32,000 nucleotides of DNA from an uncultured Muribaculaceae bacterium (lineage in GTDB: Bacteria; Pseudomonadota; Alphaproteobacteria; Rs-D84), in contig OZ246409.1 in assembly GCA_965231035.1 (NCBI GenBank), positions 181,101 to 213,100 on the forward strand. Reading direction: 5' to 3'. The position numbers and the translations under genes are program-made. Shown here one piece after another: positions 22,523 to 30,731 of the stretch (its first letter is position 1; each line of letters begins with the position of its first letter). The notes beneath the pieces are model-generated. The model was given only the letters and a program-made list of their open reading frames with translations, did no database searches and was not told the DNA's origin.

Positions 22523-24318
22523 TTTAATTTCTTAGAAATTTCAGCAGCGATAAATTCTGCATCAAATCCAAAACTTTTATAAACTTCATCACCGGGGCCT
22601 GTTTTTCCGAATTCATCAATTCCCATTACTGCATCCGCAAATTCAAACCAGCTGCTGGTTGCACCGGCCTCGATTGCAACAACAAAACCGGACAAAACTT
22701 TATCTTTATATTCTTTTGGTTGCTGTCTGAATTTTTCAACGGACACCATACTTACAACTTGGGTCGGGTATTTTAATTTTCTGGAAACAGATATCGCCAC
22801 AGGAACTTCGCTGCCGGTTGCAACAAGCGTAATTCTGGCGCGTTTTTCAGATGCCTGGATTACATATCCGCCTTTTTTAATACCCTGTGCGTCAGGTGTA
22901 TCGATTTGTAAAAATTCTTGCCTGGATAAAATAATTGCAGAAGGACGCGAACTTTCCGCCAACGCCATTTTCCAAGAAGCCAAAACTTCGGCACCATTGC
23001 ATGGACGAAATACATTTAAGTTAGGAATTAAACGCAATGATGCCAGATGTTCAATAGGTTGATGGTTTGGTCCATCTTCGCCAAGAGCGATACTATCATG
23101 TGTTAAAACATAAACCACTGGCAATTCCGACAATGCAGATAATCTGATTGCAGGTCGCATATAATCGCTGAATATCAAGAAAGTTCCGCCATACGGTCGT
23201 AATCCAGCAATGCAAAGCCCGTTCATAATAGCGCCCATTGCATGTTCGCGTACACCATAGTTTACAAAGTTTCCAGAGAAATCAGATGGTGTTATTTCAA
23301 AATTAAAATCTGTTTTGGTTCTTGTACTGGTTGCTAAATCTGCACTGCCCCCGATTAACAAAGGCTCGGAATCTATTAGTTTTTCAAGAACTTTTCCAGA
23401 TAATTCCCGCGTTGAAGTCATATCTTCATAAGAAGAAAATTCAACCGAATCGCAATCGCACTTTGCGGACTCTTTGATTTCAACTTTTGCAGGTTTGCGC
23501 TTTTCAACACGTTCCCACAACTTCATACCTTGGGCGGATGTAAATTTTTCTTCTAGTTTTAATAATTCTGCATCATCCAGATCTGCGGCGTGTGCATGTT
23601 CAGTTCCAGCCACACTGGATCCCAATCCAATCACAGTTTTACATTGAATGAATGATGGTTTCTTAGATTTTTGTGCTGCAATTATCGCCCGATCTAAATC
23701 TTTGAAATTATTTCCATTTGTTTCGATAACATTCCAACCTGCGGCACGCATACGGGATGGCACATCAATATCAGTCAATGCAGTCCCATCAATCGAGATA
23801 CCGTTATCGTCCCAAAACATTATTAAATTGTTCAGTTTATAAATTCCCGCAAAAGCAATTGATTCTTGGGCGACACCTTCCATTAAATCACCATCTGAAC
23901 AAAGACAATAAACAAATCCGGAATCAGATTTACGTCTGGAACTTTTTATTTTTTTACCCAAAGCAATTCCAACCGCATTTCCAACACCCTGCCCCAATGG
24001 TCCAGTGGTTGCAGTTACGCCATCAGTATGTCTTTCTGGATGACCAGGTAACCCACCAAGCTTTCTGAACATTTTCAAAGGTTGAATTTTATATCCCGCC
24101 AATTTTAATACGGAATACAATAAAGCACTGCCGTGACCTGCACTTAACACGAATTCATCCAAACCACGACGCAAATAATTAGCATAAATAGTTGTAACAA
24201 TATCCGCCGCACCCAGTGCAATACCAATATGTCCGCTGTGAGCATTGCGTATAGCATACAGGCTGCCCGCACGGACAGCATTTGACATTTCTTTCAATTG
24301 TTTGGAATCAAACTTCAT
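22519..24318 (-). CDS. tkt: Transketolase
   Basis: N-terminal [19 protein letters not shown], ThDP motif [14 protein letters not shown], and central [19 protein letters not shown]. 599 aa (short form), with an ATGA overlap with the downstream gene. Confidence 0.92.
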
Positions 24319-24354
24319 TTTGTGATAATATTATATCAGAAAAAGACAGGAAAA

Positions 24355-24783
24355 ATGATTAAAATTTATACAGATGGCAGTTGTTTAGGAAACCCCGGTC
24401 CAGGGGGATGGGCTTTTGTTGCAACAGACGGCAAAAATGTCGCAGAACGTTCAGGTGGTGAAAAAGACACTACTAATAATAAAATGGAATTAATGGCGGT
24501 TATAAAAGCACTGGGTGCAGCAGCCAAACATAAAGAAGTTGAAATCTATACCGACAGCCAGTATGTAAAAAACGGAATGCAGTCCTGGATTAAAAATTGG
24601 AAAAAGAACGGATGGAAAACTGCTGATAAAAAACCTGTTAAAAATAAAGAGTTGTGGCAGAAATTGGACGAGCTGGCACAGAGTATAAAAATTCATTGGA
24701 ATTGGGTCAAGGGGCATGCAGGTGACGAATTAAACGAACACGTTGATGAACTAGCCCGAACAGCCGCCGAAGGATTAAAATAA
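24355..24783 (+). CDS. rnhA: Ribonuclease HI
   Basis: [42 protein letters not shown] and [20 protein letters not shown] chose ATG 24355; the longer ORF overlaps the tkt start. Confidence 0.92.
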
Positions 24784-24787
24784 TCGC

Positions 24788-26083
24788 ATGCCACATAGGA
24801 TTCATAAACATCTTAATAAGTTCAAGCGCCACACCGGTATTCACACACCAACTGAATTTGTTCCTGAAAAGAAAATAAACCATCCAAAAAAATTAAAATC
24901 ATTTCTTTTTAATATGTATGCTTTTAAGTTATTCAGTGGATGTGTTTTTTTGTATCCGGTTATGTCAATTATGTTTCTAAAAAACGGTGTTTCAAACATC
25001 GAAATTTCAATTCTTTTTGCATTATGGGCATTTTTTGTATTTATCTTTCAACCATTCGTTGGAAATATCGGTGATAAATTTTCCAGAAAAAAACTTTTGC
25101 TTATTGGGCAATTTGCCAAAATGTTTTGCTTTGCAATTTTTATAATGTTTCCAAACTTCGCAGGTTATCTCATCGGCTTTGTTTTCTGGGGACTTCAATG
25201 GGCTATCGAGGCCAGTATCTGTGAAGCATTTGTTTATGACGAATTGCTTTGTTTAGACGCCAAAGAAAAATACACCGAAGTTTCAGGAAGAATGCTGGCA
25301 TTTCAACAGATTGGATTTTTCATATCTACTTTGGGATCTTTTATCGCGGCAGAATGGGGATACAACTTTGTAATGTTTATAACAATTGTAAATATGCTTT
25401 TGTCTGCAGTTTTTATACACAGAATAAAAATGATTCAACCAACATCTTTCGTAAAAAAGAAAAAAGACAGCCTGTTGAAACATATAGAAATCGGGGCAAA
25501 AACCATAGTCAAAATAAAATATTTAATTCTGACTATGTTTATATTGTCTTGTGTGATGTCAGTGGCAGAGTTGGATGATTATTTGGGATTATTGGGAACA
25601 GAAATCGGTGTTCCCATGGAATTTATTGGAATTATGTTCGCCATAGCAAATATTTCTGAAATGATTGGAGGGTTTGCTGCCAAACACTTTGCAAAATTTT
25701 CTGCCAGATCTATTTCTTCAATTATTGTAATTATGGGTTTAATTTTTGGACTTGCATCACTTTCTAATATTTATATTATTTGGCCTATTTTATTTGCTAG
25801 TTATTTTATATATGCAATTATTCGTATTTCGTTGACAACCAAGATTCAAAACGCAGTTCCTTCGAATCGCAGGTCTATGGTTTTATCGCTTTATGATATG
25901 TTGGGTCAGGCATCTATAATGATATTCTATGGACTTATTACAATTGGCTCGACGCTAAGCGGTTACAGATTGGGTTATTTATTATGTGGTTCGGCAATAA
26001 TATTCTTGGGAATTATCGGTATGATTTTTATCCACGATATCAAACCTATGAAAAATCAACCGTGTTGCAGTATTGAAAATTAA
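24788..26083 (+). CDS. MFS-type transporter
   Basis: About 12 hydrophobic spans, with a motif-A-like loop GNIGDKFSRKKLLLIG after TM2. The start is uncertain: ATG 24788 gives a basic 42-aa N-terminal extension, and ATG 24914 is the alternative. Confidence 0.75.
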   Translation: MPHRIHKHLNKFKRHTGIHTPTEFVPEKKINHPKKLKSFLFNMYAFKLFSGCVFLYPVMSIMFLKNGVSNIEISILFALWAFFVFIFQPFVGNIGDKFSRKKLLLIGQFAKMFCFAIFIMFPNFAGYLIGFVFWGLQWAIEASICEAFVYDELLCLDAKEKYTEVSGRMLAFQQIGFFISTLGSFIAAEWGYNFVMFITIVNMLLSAVFIHRIKMIQPTSFVKKKKDSLLKHIEIGAKTIVKIKYLILTMFILSCVMSVAELDDYLGLLGTEIGVPMEFIGIMFAIANISEMIGGFAAKHFAKFSARSISSIIVIMGLIFGLASLSNIYIIWPILFASYFIYAIIRISLTTKIQNAVPSNRRSMVLSLYDMLGQASIMIFYGLITIGSTLSGYRLGYLLCGSAIIFLGIIGMIFIHDIKPMKNQPCCSIEN

Positions 26084-26739
26084 ATTTTAAATCCCAGACC
26101 CACGATAAACATTTCAACAGAATCTTTGCGGGATGCAGGTGGTTTGATGTGATGAACAGATTCAAAGCGTTGCTTAATTTCTTTTAACAATTCGTTTGTT
26201 GTGCCACCTGTGAAAGATTTTGCAACAAATGTTCCACCTGGTTTCAATGCACGCTTTGCAAAGTCCCACGCGTATTCCAATAAAACCATTTGACGAATAT
26301 GATCTGTTTTTTGATGTCCCATTGTGTTTGGTGCCATATCAGAAACCACAACGTCAACATGCCCGTGTTGGGTTTCATCTGATGGTAATTTTAATTTTTC
26401 TTCCAACCATTTTAATGCTTCATCAGTTGTAAAATCACCTTGGTAAAATTCTACATTTGGGATTGGATTTATTTCCAATAAATCCATTGCAAATATTTTT
26501 GAACGCGGAAATTCACGCGCAATGTATTGTGACCAAGACCCCGGTGCAGCGCCCAAATCCACGACAACCTGACCATTGCGTAGAAATTTGAATTTTTCAT
26601 TTATTTCAATCAACTTGTATGCAGCACGGGCACGATAACCTTCCTTTTGCGCGCGTGCAACATAAGGATCATGCGCTTGACGAGTAATCCAAGCGACTGA
26701 AGAATTTTTTGCAGCAATTTTTTTATTTAATATTTTCAT
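26080..26739 (-). CDS. rlmE: 23S rRNA (uridine2552-2'-O)-methyltransferase
   Basis: RARAAYKLIEINEKFKF, VVDLGAAPGSWSQY and DVVVSDMAPNTMGH, matching the FtsJ/RlmE signature. 219 aa. Confidence 0.9.
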   Translation of the reverse strand: MKILNKKIAAKNSSVAWITRQAHDPYVARAQKEGYRARAAYKLIEINEKFKFLRNGQVVVDLGAAPGSWSQYIAREFPRSKIFAMDLLEINPIPNVEFYQGDFTTDEALKWLEEKLKLPSDETQHGHVDVVVSDMAPNTMGHQKTDHIRQMVLLEYAWDFAKRALKPGGTFVAKSFTGGTTNELLKEIKQRFESVHHIKPPASRKDSVEMFIVGLGFKI

Positions 26740-26757
26740 TTATAACAACACATTAAT

Positions 26758-27240
26758 TTACACATTTTTTGGACCGGGTATATTTTTCATTTTTTCCATT
26801 ACCGCTTCCATACCACCCATTCTTTGAACCATAGACATTTGGCGTTTCATAGTTTGATATTGTTTTATAATATGTTCAACTTCGCGTACACTTGTACCGC
26901 TGGTTTCAGCAATTCTGGTTTTGGCATTGGCAAAGATTTTTTCTGGATCATTGCGTTCTTCGGCTGTCATGGCTTCTAATATTTTTATTTGATGATCTAC
27001 GCTGCCGTCTTTGATTTTTTCTTTCATTGCACCAACAGCAGAACCCATACCTGGAACCATTTTCAACAATCCACTGAAGTTGCTCATCTTTTTAATTTGT
27101 TTCAATTGTGCCAACATATCGTTCATATCAAACTGACCAGACATCATACGTTGGGCTACTTCTTTCATACCGCTTGGGATTTTTTCTTCTATATTATTTT
27201 CTGTTGTTGTTTCTGTTTTTTTCTTTCCTAATCCAAACAT
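26758..27240 (-). CDS. Stand-alone SRP54/Ffh M-domain-like protein (no NG GTPase domain)
   Basis: The 160-aa Met-rich ORF is collinear with the E. coli Ffh M domain as I recall it. GQFDMNDMLAQLKQIKKMSNFSGLLKMVPGMG aligns with GFDLNDFLEQLRQMKNMGGMASLMGKLPGMG. TRIAETSGTSVREVEHIIKQY aligns with RRIAAGSGMQVQDVNRLLKQF. Confidence 0.75.
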   Translation of the reverse strand: MFGLGKKKTETTTENNIEEKIPSGMKEVAQRMMSGQFDMNDMLAQLKQIKKMSNFSGLLKMVPGMGSAVGAMKEKIKDGSVDHQIKILEAMTAEERNDPEKIFANAKTRIAETSGTSVREVEHIIKQYQTMKRQMSMVQRMGGMEAVMEKMKNIPGPKNV

Positions 27241-27263
27241 TTTACCACTCCTGTTATAGTTAA

Positions 27264-27833
27264 TTAAAATTTAGTACTGAAATGCAAATATGCACCACCA
27301 TCAGTTGGCTCTACTGAAACATTCGTGCTATCACTGTATCTGCTGGTAAACAAATAACCGAATCCTGTACCAATAACTGCACCACCGATTACGTCAGCCC
27401 AGTTATGTGTCTTGGAACGAATACGTGAATATCCAACAAAAGATGCCGCCGCATACATCGGTGCACCAATAGCCCACCCATATCTGCGTTGCCAATAAGC
27501 CGCACCAACAAAAGCAGACGAAGTATGACCCGATGGAAAAGATACACCACGTATTCCATCTGGCTGTCTTGGACGATCTGCATGAACTGTGTATTTCAGA
27601 ACTTCTGTGGTAACAAATGTTGACCCATAAGCTTTTGCAAACTGCCAATCACCTTCCCAATCTTTGATATATGTTGAATATGCAAGTCCAGATAAAGGTA
27701 TCGCAAATTGTAGAATGCTACCCAGGCTTTCCATTTGATGTTCGTCAATGGTCGGTGCACGGCCACGCGCAAAAGCACTTTGGGTTAATAAAATAGCCCC
27801 CAGGCCAAATAATAACGGTTTTTGTATTTTCAT
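27264..27833 (-). CDS. Secreted PAP2-superfamily phosphatase
   Basis: Signal peptide MKIQKPLLFGLGAILLTQSAFA, with the three PAP2 motifs KYTVHADRP, PSGH and SRIRSKTHNWADV. 189 aa, ending ...AYLHFSTKF. Confidence 0.8.
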   Translation of the reverse strand: MKIQKPLLFGLGAILLTQSAFARGRAPTIDEHQMESLGSILQFAIPLSGLAYSTYIKDWEGDWQFAKAYGSTFVTTEVLKYTVHADRPRQPDGIRGVSFPSGHTSSAFVGAAYWQRRYGWAIGAPMYAAASFVGYSRIRSKTHNWADVIGGAVIGTGFGYLFTSRYSDSTNVSVEPTDGGAYLHFSTKF

Positions 27834-27890: not shown

Positions 27891-30731
27891 TCAACTTTTA
27901 AAATATTTCTTTAAATATTTTCCAGTAATTGAATTTTTATCTGCAGCAACTTGCTCTGGGGTTCCAACTGAAATAACTTTACCACCTTCGGCACCACCAG
28001 TCGGCCCCAAATCAATTACCCAATCTGCTGTTTTGATTACTTCCAGATTATGTTCAATTACGATAACGGTATTACCCTGGTCTACTAATTCCTGCAAAAC
28101 CGATAGTAGCATTTTTATATCTTCAAAATGCAATCCTGTGGTTGGTTCATCCAATATGTAAAGTGTCTGACCAGTGCTGCGTGCCGCCAACTCTTTGGAT
28201 AATTTTATGCGTTGCGCTTCACCACCAGACAAATCCAAACTGCTTTGTCCCAGTTTTATATAATCCAAACCAACGCGTTTTAATAATTCTAATCTACGGG
28301 AAATCTGTGGGACGTTTACAAAGAATCTGAATGCTTCATCCACAGTCATATCCAAAACATCTGCAATTGATTTGCCTTTGTATTTAACCGCCAGTGTTTC
28401 TTCGTTATATCTTTTGCCATGGCATTTATCACATTCGACATAAACATCTGCCAAGAAATTCATTTCGATTTTTATCTGGCCATCACCCTGGCAGGCTTCG
28501 CATCGGCCACCTTTGACATTAAAAGAAAATCTGCCTGCTGTGTAACCGCGTGTTTTGGCTTCGGGTAATTCTGCAAAGAAATCACGAATATTTGTGAACA
28601 CACCCGTATAAGTCGCAGGATTACTACGTGGGGTTCGTCCAATCGGGCTTTGGTCTATATCGACAACTTTATCAATATTTTCCATGCCTGTGATTATATC
28701 GTGGCTGCCTGCTTCCAGCTTTGAATTATAAAGTGCTCGCATTAACGAAGGATACAAAGTATCCAACAACAACGTTGATTTTCCAGATCCAGAAACACCT
28801 GTCAGCGCAATAAATTTACTCAGCGGAAATTCAACATTTATATTTTTCAGATTATTTTCGCGCGCACCTTTGATAACTATTTTTTTACCATTACCTTCCC
28901 TGCGAGATTTTGGAACGGCTATTTTTTTCGCCCCAGACAAATATTGACCAGTCAAAGAATCTTTATTTTTTATAATATCTTCGGGCGCACCAGCAGCAAC
29001 AATATGCCCACCATTCACACCAGCATTACGACCTATATCAACCAAATAATCTGCGTTGCGCATTGCATCTTCGTCGTGTTCAACAACAATTACCGTATTG
29101 TCTTTGTCACGTAACATTTTTAAAGTATCCAACAATTTATCATTGTCACTTTGATGCAGACCGATTGAAGGTTCATCCAAAACATACAAAACACCGGATA
29201 AACCACTGCCGATTTGTGATGCCAATCTGATTCGTTGTGCCTCACCACCAGAAAGCGTTCCAGCGGTCCGTGCCAGTGTCAGATATCCCAATCCTACGTT
29301 CTGTAAAAATTCTAAACGACTGGTGATTTCGCGCAGAACAATTCGTGCGATATCGTTTTCTTTTTGTGTCAGATGATTTGGCAAATCGCGGAACCAATTC
29401 AAAGATTCATTCACAGACATTGCCGAAACATCCATAATATCCAAACCATTTATCTTGATACACAAAGCCTGAATATTTAAGCGTTTACCATGACAAACCG
29501 GACAAGGCTTTTGTGCTTGGTATTTAGAAAGCTCAGACCGCATAGATTCTGATTCGGATTCACGCCAACGACGCTCTAAATTTGATATCACACCTTCGAA
29601 TGATTTTTCGTATTCAAACCCATTCCAATTAATTTTAACTGCTTCATCGCCTGTACCATACAAAACTATATTTTTATGTTCTTCGGTCAATGTATGCCAA
29701 GGCTTGCTTAATGGGATTTTATATTTTCGTTTCAAGGCTTCCAGTAAATGATCATACTGGGTTAGCATTCCGCCACGCGACCAAGGTGCAATCGCACCAT
29801 CCAAAATTGATTTACTGGGGTCTGGTATTATCAAATCAGGTGACATATTTAATTGAACACCCAAACCATCACAAGCGGCACAAGCACCAACAGGTGCATT
29901 AAAAGAAAATAAACGTGGTTCAATCTTTGGAACTGTAAATCCACTGACTGGACAAGCATAATTTTGGGAATATAAAATATCTTCGTCTGTATCAAGCCGG
30001 CGAATCAATACGGAACCTGGGACCAGTCTTAATGAACCTTCAAACGATGAATAAAGTCTGGAATTAAATTCTTCTTGTTCTTCTTTGGTTACTTTTTCTT
30101 TTGGTAAAGTCAACCTATCTACTATCACAAAAATATTATGTTTTTTATTTTTATCCAAAGCCGGAACCGAATGCAAATCATATACATCTCCGTCAACGAT
30201 TGCGCGCTGGTATCCTTGCTTGATTAGAAAAGCTATTTCTTTTCTGTATTCACCTTTGCGGTCACGAACCAAAGGCGCCATAACATAAATCTTGGTTGCG
30301 GCTGGCAGCTTCAAGGTCCAATCAACCATCTCAGCAATTGTTTGTGATTTAATTGGCAATCCTGTCACAGGCGAATAAGGAACACCAACGCGTGCCCACA
30401 ATAATCTGAAATAATCATAAATTTCGGTAACTGTTCCAACTGTGGAACGCGGATTTTTCGAAGTAGTTTTTTGTTCAATTGAAATTGCAGGAGATAAACC
30501 TTCGATAATATCTACATCAGGTTTTTTTTGCATATCCAAGAACTGACGCGCATAAGAAGATAACGATTCAACATATCTACGTTGACCTTCGGCATAAATC
30601 GTATTAAATGCCAACGACGATTTGCCCGAACCAGATACGCCAGTAAAGACCACCAATTTGTTTTTTGGTATGTCCAAGTCAATATTCTTAAGATTATTCT
30701 CACGTGCGCCGCGAATTTTAATTGTGTTCAT
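27891..30731 (-). CDS. uvrA: Excinuclease ABC subunit A
   Basis: 946 aa with two ABC modules (Walker [10 protein letters not shown] and GVSGSGKST; LSGGEAQR twice). It also has the zinc modules CPVCHGKRL and CEACQGDG...CDKCHGKRY. Confidence 0.95.

What the first reader, a model, noticed from the sequence alone, without database searches (positions are those of the whole stretch)
26758..27240. Free-standing SRP54/Ffh M-domain protein lacking the NG GTPase domains
Seen directly: a 160-aa Met-rich ORF aligns along its length with the signal-peptide-binding M domain of Ffh. Its N-terminus MFGLGKKK sits where Ffh has the ILGMGD segment that ends the G domain and opens the linker. Upstream on the same strand is a PAP2 phosphatase gene only 23 nt away, so there is no room for an NG remnant and no sign of a frameshift. 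From established knowledge, bacterial Ffh is a single N-G-M polypeptide, and the M domain binds both 4.5S RNA and signal sequences. As I recall it, the RNA-binding motif GSRKRRIAAGSG is only partly kept here (ANAKTRIAETSG): RIA and SG are retained, but two Arg and one Gly are replaced. This could be a second, M-only paralog acting as a signal-peptide or hydrophobic-segment binding factor, or as a competitor of SRP. It could also be half of a split ffh. I do not know of a characterised example.
Basis: partly seen in the sequence, partly recalled or inferred. Interest (0 to 1): 0.62.

Follow-up and report, generated by a model that had tools for sequence, protein, structure and literature searches.

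The report
SRP reduced to a lone M domain
[quoted passage not shown] This matches what happened to SRP in mitochondria.

Summary
Window 26758-27240 (minus strand) encodes a 160-aa, Met-rich protein that matches the whole Pfam SRP_SPB (Ffh M-domain) model (E 2.4e-24) and nothing else of Ffh.

It is neither a second paralog nor half of a split gene. It sits in the ancestral ffh slot (uvrA–ffh–rlmE) and is the only SRP remnant in the genome. No SRP-type GTPase domain (Ffh-NG or FtsY) and no 4.5S RNA were found in the 716-kb single-scaffold genome.

The same holds across the clade (Alphaproteobacteria, order Rs-D84, Candidatus Enterousia and sister genera):
- 0 of 191 genomes that are at least 90% complete carry an SRP GTPase domain, against 17 of 17 in the other genera of the family.
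- A lineage-tuned covariance model finds 4.5S RNA clearly in 11 of the 12 sampled same-family genomes with full-length Ffh, and in none of the 12 M-only genomes sampled.

The protein is under strong purifying selection (dN/dS about 0.055). It keeps the groove, finger loop and Met-rich tail, has an invariant new N-terminus (MFGFGKKK), and has lost the RNA-binding signature.

Most likely it is a GTP- and RNA-independent binder of signal-anchor or transmembrane segments. That makes it a bacterial analogue, of independent origin, of the mitochondrial mL105/MAP67. I found no paper describing this in bacteria.

The parts
26758..27240 (-). Coding sequence of the free-standing Ffh M-domain protein (160 aa plus stop)
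   Evidence: ORF list; Pfam SRP_SPB E 2.4e-24; only SRP_SPB match in the whole genome; dN/dS 0.055 over 81 species
27248..27252 (-). Shine-Dalgarno AGGAG, 8 nt upstream of the ATG
   Evidence: Read directly from the sequence
27217..27240 (-). N-terminal motif MFG[LF]GKKK (residues 1-8), nearly invariant in the clade. It aligns with ILGMGDVV at the end of the G domain and may combine the original Ffh start (MF) with GMGD.
   Evidence: The M[FLIVW]G[LFIM]G start was found in 77 of 80 loci, nearly all MFGFGKKK. Alignments. All related Ffh proteins start with MF. AF2 predicts residues 1-21 as disordered.
27181..27216 (-). Low-complexity spacer of variable length (residues 9-20 here, up to ~35 aa in relatives). 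It replaces the first part of the G-M linker.
   Evidence: Alignment A4; pLDDT <50
26836..27135 (-). M domain proper (residues 36-135; Pfam SRP_SPB positions 1-91)
27004..27084 (-). Finger-loop region (residues 53-79, SNFSGLLKMVPGMGSAVGAMKEKIKDG), almost invariant within the clade
   Evidence: Alignments; lower pLDDT (60-61), as expected for a flexible loop
26896..26931 (-). Degenerate 4.5S-RNA-binding signature ANAKTRIAETSG (residues 104-115). All full-length relatives have [AS]-S/A-R-K-x-R-I-A-x-G-[SA]-G.
   Evidence: Alignment: Ser->Asn, Arg->Ala, Ala->Glu and the first Gly lost, consistently in M-only proteins. Core net charge is +3/+4, against +6 to +13 in the full-length Rs-D84 relatives.
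26785..26838 (-). Met-rich C-terminal helix and tail (residues 135-152, MSMVQRMGGMEAVMEKMK)
   Evidence: Conserved in the clade. It corresponds to the C-terminal segment that enters the tunnel exit in Ffh and in mL105, according to PMC7326499.
27264..27833 (-). Context: PAP2-family phosphatase gene between uvrA and the M-only gene. It is found in this genome and in G019, and in only 1 of 80 related loci.
27891..30731 (-). Context: uvrA, the conserved upstream neighbour of ffh and of M-only in the whole family
26080..26739 (-). Context: rlmE (FtsJ methyltransferase), the conserved downstream neighbour, 18 nt after the M-only stop codon
   Evidence: Pfam FtsJ E 2e-59; present downstream in 77 of 80 loci; also downstream of full-length ffh in G019, G014 and G015

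Best explanation
The gene is the in-place truncated descendant of ffh. In an ancestor within family Rs-D84, the codons for the N and G (GTPase) domains were removed. This was probably an in-frame internal deletion that joined the original start (Met-Phe) to the GMGD motif ending the G domain. What remains is an 8-residue motif MFGFGKKK, a disordered spacer, the last part of the G-M linker and the complete M domain.

Lineages that carry this allele have also lost ftsY and the 4.5S RNA gene. They therefore have no SRP GTPase cycle and no SRP ribonucleoprotein, but they keep SecYEG, SecA, SecB, trigger factor and YidC.

The retained protein most likely still uses its Met-lined groove and finger loop to capture signal-anchor or transmembrane segments of nascent inner-membrane proteins. 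It would do so without GTP or RNA, either sitting at the ribosomal tunnel exit or tethered to the membrane or translocon by its basic-aromatic N-terminus, and would pass clients to SecYEG/YidC. This is how mitochondrial mL105/MAP67 is thought to work.

Shown here: the homology, the architecture, orthology by synteny, co-loss of NG, FtsY and the RNA, loss of the RNA-binding signature, and strong purifying selection. Inferred: client binding, the site of action, and the deletion mechanism.
For: Identity and architecture.

Sole SRP remnant in G000:
- The only SRP_SPB hit in the genome is this ORF.
- There is no PF00448 hit.
- TIGR00959 matches only its M-domain part.
- tblastn with same-family Ffh and FtsY gives only the M-domain hit, with P-loop noise at E>0.04.
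- The syntenic ftsY site is a 578-bp stretch of 26% GC with no remnant.

Clade-wide loss: an SRP GTPase domain at E<=1e-10 occurs in 0/191 genomes (>=90% complete) of the M-only genera, against 17/17 in the other genera of the family.

4.5S RNA:
- Rfam RF00169 missed the RNA in all 24 family members sampled.
- The lineage models R1 and R2 recover it clearly in 11 of the 12 sampled f1 genomes with full-length Ffh (G024 gives only a weak hit, E 0.007, in a repeat array), and in none of the 12 M-only genomes at E<=1.
- A run with filters off over the syntenic site and the window found nothing.
- A regex for the domain-IV core matches 16/16 controls but gives only chance hits inside coding sequence in G000.

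Orthology: uvrA-ffh-rlmE in full-SRP relatives corresponds to uvrA-Monly-rlmE here.

Selection:
- Median dN/dS is 0.055.
- Mean amino-acid identity is 75.5%, against 80% for RlmE and 84% for UvrA in the same loci.
- There are 893 90%-identity clusters in public data, all carrying PF02978 only.
- The M-only proteins form one clade (100/100) on a long stem with a short crown.

Motifs: the SRKxRIAxGSG signature is kept in all full-length relatives and is changed to NAKxRIAE..G in M-only proteins. Core net charge is +3/+4, against +6 to +13 in full-length Rs-D84 relatives. The groove hydrophobic residues, the finger loop and the Met-rich tail are conserved.

Clients and translocon remain: SecY, SecA, SecB, trigger factor and YidC are present. 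About 49 ORFs have >=4 predicted TM segments.

Precedent: mL105/MAP67.
Against: - No experiment or expression data supports any step.
- Nothing shows that the protein binds ribosomes. The main SRP-ribosome contact in bacteria is made by the N domain, which is gone (my own knowledge). I found no clade-specific extensions in uL23, uL22, uL29 or uL24 that could create a new docking site.
- YidC has no ribosome-binding tail in either group, so I did not identify how ribosomes would reach the membrane.
- Absence of 4.5S RNA rests on covariance models. A radically divergent RNA partner cannot be excluded.
- G000 has one 100-N gap, at genome position 61001.
- The organism tree (RpoB+UvrA+YidC) puts G011 apart from the other M-only genomes (AU p 0.0017). 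The simple 'one deletion, one loss' history is therefore not established.
- B. subtilis Ffh, which does bind RNA, also has a core net charge of +3, so the charge argument is weak on its own.
Confidence: 0.6

Rival explanations
1. Neofunctionalised groove. The M domain is conserved because its hydrophobic groove now binds something other than general membrane-protein signals. Candidates are one specific partner protein, in the way that cpSRP54's C-terminal region recruits cpSRP43, or a regulator, in the way that E. coli SRP recognises sigma-32. On this reading the protein has no general targeting role.
For: The stem leading to the M-only clade is long (1.47 substitutions per site) and is followed by very slow change. 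The finger-loop region is almost invariant and the N-terminal motif is new and invariant. Both fit adaptation to a new, specific partner. SRP recognition of sigma-32 has been reported (PMC4823717, listed).
Against: All groove-forming helices and the Met-rich character are retained. No conserved new neighbouring gene points to a partner, because the uvrA and rlmE neighbours are ancestral to the full-length gene. The mitochondrial precedent points to nascent-chain handling.
Confidence: 0.2
2. Still a ribonucleoprotein. The protein binds an RNA that my searches cannot recognise, either a radically diverged SRP RNA or ribosomal RNA, and works as an RNA-bound factor.
For: K107, R109, I110 and A111 of the motif are kept, and the core is still net positive. 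The Rfam model missed genuine 4.5S RNAs in the whole family until a lineage-specific model was built, so a negative result needs care.
Against: R2 finds 4.5S RNA clearly in 11 of the 12 sampled f1 genomes with full-length Ffh, including the closest ones, but nothing at E<=1 in 12 M-only genomes. There is no remnant at the syntenic site with filters off. The Ser, Arg and Gly residues of the signature are replaced and a Glu is introduced. Two GC-rich islands flagged by earlier notes are not SRP RNA.
Confidence: 0.1
3. Decaying relic. The ORF is a leftover of ffh on its way to being lost and has no function.
For: The lineage is undergoing genome reduction (0.7-1.1 Mb; PMC12306168).
Against: dN/dS is 0.055 across 81 species. 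The frame, start and length are intact in 80/80 loci. Conservation is similar to RlmE and UvrA. The M hit was found in 251 of 257 species of the largest genus. The Shine-Dalgarno sequence is good.
Confidence: 0.02
4. Split ffh or assembly artefact. The NG part is encoded elsewhere, or was lost through a mis-assembly, a frameshift or binning.
For: One relative (G007) has NG and M in two adjacent frames. G000 has one 100-N gap.
Against: There is no NG or FtsY sequence in G000 or in any of 191 high-quality genomes of the M-only genera, including assemblies of only one to a few contigs. The architecture is identical in 80 independent assemblies from many hosts. The flanks on both sides are contiguous, with 23- and 18-nt spacers.
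Confidence: 0.01

Closest known systems
Bacterial Ffh (SRP54 family), M domain
   Same: There is full-length homology to the M domain: Pfam SRP_SPB positions 1-91, and E 1e-16 to 1e-21 against the E. coli and B. subtilis M domains in PDB. The helical fold, the finger loop and the Met-rich C-tail are shared. The gene occupies the same chromosomal slot as ffh in sister genera.
   Different: There is no N domain and no GTPase domain. The genome has no FtsY partner and no 4.5S RNA. The RNA-binding signature is degenerate. The N-terminal motif and spacer are new. The score is 88 bits against the 473-bit equivalog cut-off.
mL105 / MAP67: the mitochondrial Ffh-M-domain-only protein of many protists, algae and apicomplexans
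   Same: Both have an M-domain-only architecture. For MAP67 this was proposed to have arisen by an internal deletion removing the N and G domains (PMC8321541). Both work, or would work, without SRP RNA. mL105 sits at the mitoribosome tunnel exit with its C-terminal helix in the tunnel and contacts the Oxa1 insertase (PMC7326499 and PMC9576764). Foldseek retrieves 6z1p_AT with TM 0.54. Mitochondria descend from Alphaproteobacteria.
   Different: The origin is independent. A profile of the bacterial M-only proteins hits mL105 only at E 6e-6, against 1e-21 for bacterial Ffh. mL105 is nuclear-encoded, longer (299 aa in Tetrahymena) and a stable mitoribosomal protein. The bacterial protein lives beside SecYEG, SecA and SecB, which most mitochondria lack. 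Ribosome association of the bacterial protein is untested.
cpSRP54 of land-plant chloroplasts (an SRP without RNA)
   Same: It is an SRP54 homologue that works without SRP RNA (references cited in PMC6244792 and PMC11427828).
   Different: cpSRP54 keeps its NG domain, its GTPase cycle and its receptor cpFtsY.
Bacteria that tolerate loss of SRP (Streptococcus mutans with YidC2; extremely reduced insect endosymbionts). This entry rests on my own knowledge and was not checked here.
   Same: These cells live without a working Ffh/FtsY/RNA pathway.
   Different: In those cases the whole ffh gene is deleted or dispensable, and in S. mutans a YidC paralog with a ribosome-binding tail compensates. Here YidC is single-copy with a short tail in both groups, and the M domain is specifically retained.

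Membership tests
Ffh / SRP54 (NCBIfam TIGR00959 equivalog) | Whole-protein score above the curated cut-off (473 bits) | tested here: not met
   88 bits; only model positions 314-427 are matched
Ffh / SRP54 (NCBIfam TIGR00959 equivalog) | SRP-type GTPase G domain (Pfam PF00448), with the N domain in front of it | tested here: not met
   No PF00448 hit in the genome. tblastn with same-family Ffh finds only the M part. Only 23 nt separate the ORF from the upstream gene. PF02881 was not searched on its own.
Ffh / SRP54 (NCBIfam TIGR00959 equivalog) | M domain (Pfam PF02978 SRP_SPB) | tested here: met
   E 2.4e-24, complete profile; fold confirmed
Ffh / SRP54 (NCBIfam TIGR00959 equivalog) | Partner 4.5S/SRP RNA present and the conserved RNA-binding signature (SRKxRIAxGSG) intact | tested here: not met
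   No RF00169, R1 or R2 hit. The signature reads ANAKTRIAETSG. Actual RNA binding cannot be tested here.
Ffh / SRP54 (NCBIfam TIGR00959 equivalog) | Receptor FtsY present | tested here: not met
Pfam SRP_SPB domain family (PF02978) | Score above the gathering threshold over the full domain | tested here: met
   86 bits against 27; profile positions 1-91 of 91
mL105 / MAP67 (mitochondrial M-domain-only proteins) | M-domain-only architecture without N and G domains | tested here: met
mL105 / MAP67 (mitochondrial M-domain-only proteins) | Specific sequence relationship (orthology) to MAP67/mL105 | tested here: not met
   The profile of M-only proteins hits 6z1p_AT at E 6e-6, and bacterial Ffh M domains at 1e-21. 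The protein nests with the Ffh of its own family.
mL105 / MAP67 (mitochondrial M-domain-only proteins) | Stable association with the ribosomal tunnel exit | not testable with these tools
   Needs ribosome co-sedimentation or cryo-EM. No new extensions were seen in uL23, uL22, uL29 or uL24.

The most novel reading that the evidence does not exclude
A widespread clade of free-living or host-gut Alphaproteobacteria (>=260 species-level genomes, including human-gut members) carries out membrane-protein biogenesis with no SRP GTPases and no SRP RNA. The retained M domain would be a constitutive, nucleotide-independent receptor for nascent signal anchors, at the ribosome exit or on the membrane. That would make it a living bacterial replay of the step that produced mitochondrial mL105/MAP67. 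The truncated allele may also have spread laterally between genera, each time making ftsY and the 4.5S RNA dispensable.
Probability: 0.4. Interest if true: 0.88.

Novelty: new variant of a known kind. Interest (0 to 1): 0.82.

Why it matters
Ffh, FtsY and SRP RNA belong to the small set of components regarded as universal in cellular life. ffh and ftsY are, as far as I recall, also used as marker genes for estimating genome completeness.

Here a species-rich bacterial clade, common in the guts of ruminants, birds and humans, has lost the whole GTPase and RNA machinery but keeps the signal-binding module under strong selection. This has four consequences:

1. It gives a natural system for asking what the M domain can do alone, and how polytopic membrane proteins reach SecYEG/YidC without an SRP cycle.
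2. It provides a bacterial, alphaproteobacterial model for the origin and function of mitochondrial mL105/MAP67, whose role is still inferred from structures.
3. It shows that NG, FtsY and the RNA are lost as a unit while M is separable.
4. If they are indeed among the markers used, marker-based completeness estimates would be biased low for these genomes. The gene is currently annotated as 'hypothetical protein' or, wrongly, as 'SRP54'.

Tried and rejected
**Compensation by YidC.** I looked for a ribosome-binding C-tail of the Oxa1/YidC2 type. YidC is single-copy, and its tail after the last TM segment is 5-10 residues in both M-only and full-SRP genomes. Rejected.

**New docking extensions on tunnel-exit ribosomal proteins.** uL23, uL22, uL29 and uL24 show no difference specific to M-only genomes.

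**Hidden 4.5S RNA.**
- Rfam RF00169 was negative, but it was also negative for relatives that do have the RNA, so I built the lineage models R1 and R2.
- Both models were still negative in all M-only genomes.
- A run with filters off over the window and over the syntenic site upstream of the G000 gene at ~136.4 kb gave only noise at <=12.6 bits.
- A regex for the domain-IV core gave 9 chance hits inside coding regions.
- Two GC-rich islands flagged in earlier scan notes turned out to be a weak T-box-like hit and tRNAs.

**ftsY pseudogene at its syntenic site.** Nothing was found.

**M-only proteins in other bacterial lineages.** Most short M-domain proteins in the 1.84-billion-representative library start at the internal Met of GMGD (MGDIVSLVEKA...) and keep GSRKRRIAxGSG. 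They look like fragments or mis-called starts of normal Ffh. Only one, from a marine contig, is a genuine additional M-only gene.

**Specific relationship to mL105.** Rejected.

**Monophyly of the M-only genomes.** It was expected but not obtained: AU p 0.03, 0.010, 0.108 and 0.0017.

**Promoter and terminator scan.** Nothing above the chance expectation.

Full report
**What is there**

On the minus strand, window 27240 to 26758 encodes a 160-aa protein with 18 Met.
- It matches the entire Pfam SRP_SPB model: E 2.4e-24, 86 bits against a cut-off of 27, residues 36-135.
- It matches the NCBIfam ffh equivalog only over model positions 314-427 (88 bits against 473).
- phmmer against PDB sequences aligns residues 24-144 with the M domains of B. 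subtilis and E. coli Ffh, finger loop included.
- An AlphaFold2 model built from a 32-sequence alignment (pLDDT 74) has a disordered N-terminus (residues 1-21) followed by eight helices. Its best Foldseek matches are SRP54/Ffh M domains.
- An AGGAG lies 8 nt before the ATG. The upstream PAP2 gene ends 23 nt away and rlmE starts 18 nt after the stop codon.

**Organism**

The window lies in a 716,531-bp single-scaffold genome with one 100-N gap, 36.6% GC and 91% estimated completeness. Record titles of the closest loci place it in Alphaproteobacteria, GTDB order and family Rs-D84, next to Candidatus Enterousia. A 2025 paper describes these as uncultured bacteria of 0.7-1.1 Mb from ruminant, bird and human guts (PMC12306168). 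That paper, and every other paper I found on these organisms, says nothing about SRP.

**The rest of SRP is missing**

In the window's own genome:
- The only SRP_SPB match is this ORF.
- There is no SRP-type GTPase domain, so neither Ffh-NG nor FtsY is present.
- There is no Rfam 4.5S RNA.
- tblastn with Ffh and FtsY from the same family finds only the M domain; the rest is P-loop noise.
- Where relatives have ftsY (next to the gene that maps to G000 289358-290530), G000 has 578 bp of 26%-GC spacer with no remnant.

Across the family:
- Genera g1, g3, g8, g10, g14, g15 and g17 have a short M-only frame (about 150-270 aa; E 1e-21 to 1e-26).
- Genera g2, g4-g7, g9, g11-g13 and g16, and the other five families of the order, have full-length Ffh plus FtsY.
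- Among genomes at least 90% complete, an SRP GTPase domain at E<=1e-10 is found in 0 of 191 genomes of M-only genera and in 17 of 17 genomes of the others.

**4.5S RNA**

Rfam's model missed the RNA in all 24 family members sampled, including those with intact Ffh. I therefore built a covariance model from the order's own RNAs (R1) and then a second one that includes family sequences (R2). R2 finds a 4.5S RNA clearly in 11 of the 12 sampled f1 genomes with full-length Ffh, at E 1e-6 to 1e-17; G024 gives only a weak hit (E 0.007) inside a repeat array. It finds nothing at E<=1 in the 12 M-only genomes sampled.

A run with filters off over the syntenic site and the whole window found only noise. 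A regex for the domain-IV core found only chance hits. Rfam scans of two GC-rich islands noted by earlier readers found no SRP RNA. NG, FtsY and the RNA are therefore absent together, and only M is kept.

**Orthology and origin**

In full-SRP relatives the gene order is uvrA-ffh-rlmE, with PAP2 between uvrA and ffh in G019. M-only loci have uvrA-Monly-rlmE: rlmE is present in 77/80 loci and uvrA in 73/80. The gene is therefore ffh truncated in place.

Its N-terminus MFG[FL]GKKK aligns with ILGMGDVV at the end of the G domain. Every related Ffh starts with Met-Phe. An in-frame deletion joining codon 2 to GMGD is thus a simple model. This is an inference, resting on very few residues.

All M-only proteins form one clade (100/100) on a long stem (1.47 substitutions per site) with a short crown.

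**Selection and sequence features**

- Across 81 species, median dN/dS is 0.055.
- Identity to the G000 protein averages 75.5%, against 80% for RlmE and 84% for UvrA in the same loci.
- Public databases hold 893 90%-identity clusters of these short proteins. All carry PF02978 only and are named 'hypothetical protein' or 'SRP54'.
- The hydrophobic residues of the groove helices, the finger-loop region and the Met-rich C-terminal helix are conserved, and the finger loop is nearly invariant.
- The RNA-binding signature [AS]SRKxRIAxGSG is kept in all full-length relatives. In M-only proteins it becomes ANAKxRIAE-x-[SA]-G. The core net charge is +3/+4, against +6 to +13 in the full-length Rs-D84 relatives.

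**Cellular context**

G000 keeps SecY, SecA, SecB, trigger factor and one YidC. It encodes roughly 49 ORFs with four or more hydrophobic segments, so SRP-type clients still exist. There is no YidC tail extension and no new extension on uL23, uL22, uL29 or uL24 that separates M-only genomes from the rest.

**Comparison with what is known**

Foldseek also retrieved mitoribosomal proteins of Tetrahymena and Toxoplasma. According to the literature:
- mL105 of the ciliate mitoribosome is an Ffh-M-domain homologue without NG. It sits at the tunnel exit with its C-terminal helix in the tunnel (PMC7326499).
- In Polytomella it contacts the Oxa1 insertase (PMC9576764).

The bacterial protein is not its ortholog: the profile scores E 6e-6 against mL105 and 1e-21 against bacterial Ffh. 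This is a parallel, independent reduction within the bacterial class that gave rise to mitochondria. I found no report of an M-only Ffh, or of a natural SRP-GTPase-less clade of this kind, in bacteria. The library does not hold every journal.

**Unresolved**

- Organism trees place the M-only genome G011 (genus g8) beside G012, which has full SRP. They place the main M-only clade beside G009 and G010, which also have full SRP. In the RpoB+UvrA+YidC tree (2838 columns), the AU test against monophyly of the M-only genomes gives p 0.0017.
- Given the single origin of the gene, there are three possibilities. The truncated allele replaced ffh laterally and ftsY and ffs were then lost twice; or an old paralogy was followed by differential loss; or G011's long branch misleads the trees.
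- A 2.6-kb marine metagenome contig carries uvrA followed 13 nt later by a 138-aa M-only gene (MGLFGKKK...; motif NAQKERIAADSK; 46-47% identity). The architecture therefore extends beyond gut lineages.

**Verdict**

The feature is real and conserved. It is the sole survivor of the SRP system in a large bacterial clade. Function as a GTP- and RNA-independent binder of nascent signal-anchor or TM segments is the best-supported mechanism (about 0.6) and remains inferred.

Noticed in passing
L013 (G007:C66, about 1037-2048): In one full-SRP relative, ffh is read as two adjacent frames. NG (329 aa) ends '...ENLMNRF*' and M (152 aa) begins '...NRFFSGEF'. This is a frameshift exactly at the G-M linker. 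It could be an assembly error in a 100-contig MAG, or a natural split intermediate. This genome still has FtsY and 4.5S RNA.
   Followed up: partly
G024 (genus g5): This genome (92% complete, 10 contigs) has a full-length Ffh. It shows no FtsY-type second GTPase hit and only a weak 4.5S-model hit (E 0.007), which lies inside a tandem-repeat array at C9:4881-5640. Its congeners G008 and G303 have both. This may be an intermediate stage, or just a gap in the assembly.
   Followed up: no
L173 (ENA ERZ23486243, marine metagenome contig, 259-675): A divergent 138-aa M-only gene lies 13 nt downstream of uvrA, with rpsP on the opposite strand. Its N-terminus, MGLFGKKK, resembles the N-termini of the short FtsY proteins of this family (MGIFKKIK..., MGLFSRLG...).
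   Followed up: partly
It lies next to two tRNA genes. It is not an SRP RNA.
   Followed up: partly
window 27264-27833 (-): The PAP2 phosphatase gene inserted between uvrA and the M-only gene is found in only 1 of 80 related M-only loci. It is also present upstream of full-length ffh in G019, so its distribution is patchy.
   Followed up: partly
Family Rs-D84 4.5S RNAs (for example L131-L135, positions 1501-1592, minus strand): The 4.5S RNAs of this family are 55-61% GC in ~37%-GC genomes. They have a shortened apical stem (CAGGG-GGAA-ACCAGCAGCC) and fall below the Rfam RF00169 threshold. Standard annotation would report them as missing.
   Followed up: yes
G000 genome position 61001-61100: There is a run of 100 N, which is a scaffold gap or a withheld stretch, in the otherwise single-contig genome.
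   Followed up: no
window 24298-26083 (+): An RNase H-like ORF (161 aa) is followed directly by a 431-aa ORF that looks like a multi-pass, MFS-type membrane transporter (read by eye from the translation; not scanned against Pfam). The transporter is an example of a polytopic protein that would normally be an SRP client.
   Followed up: no
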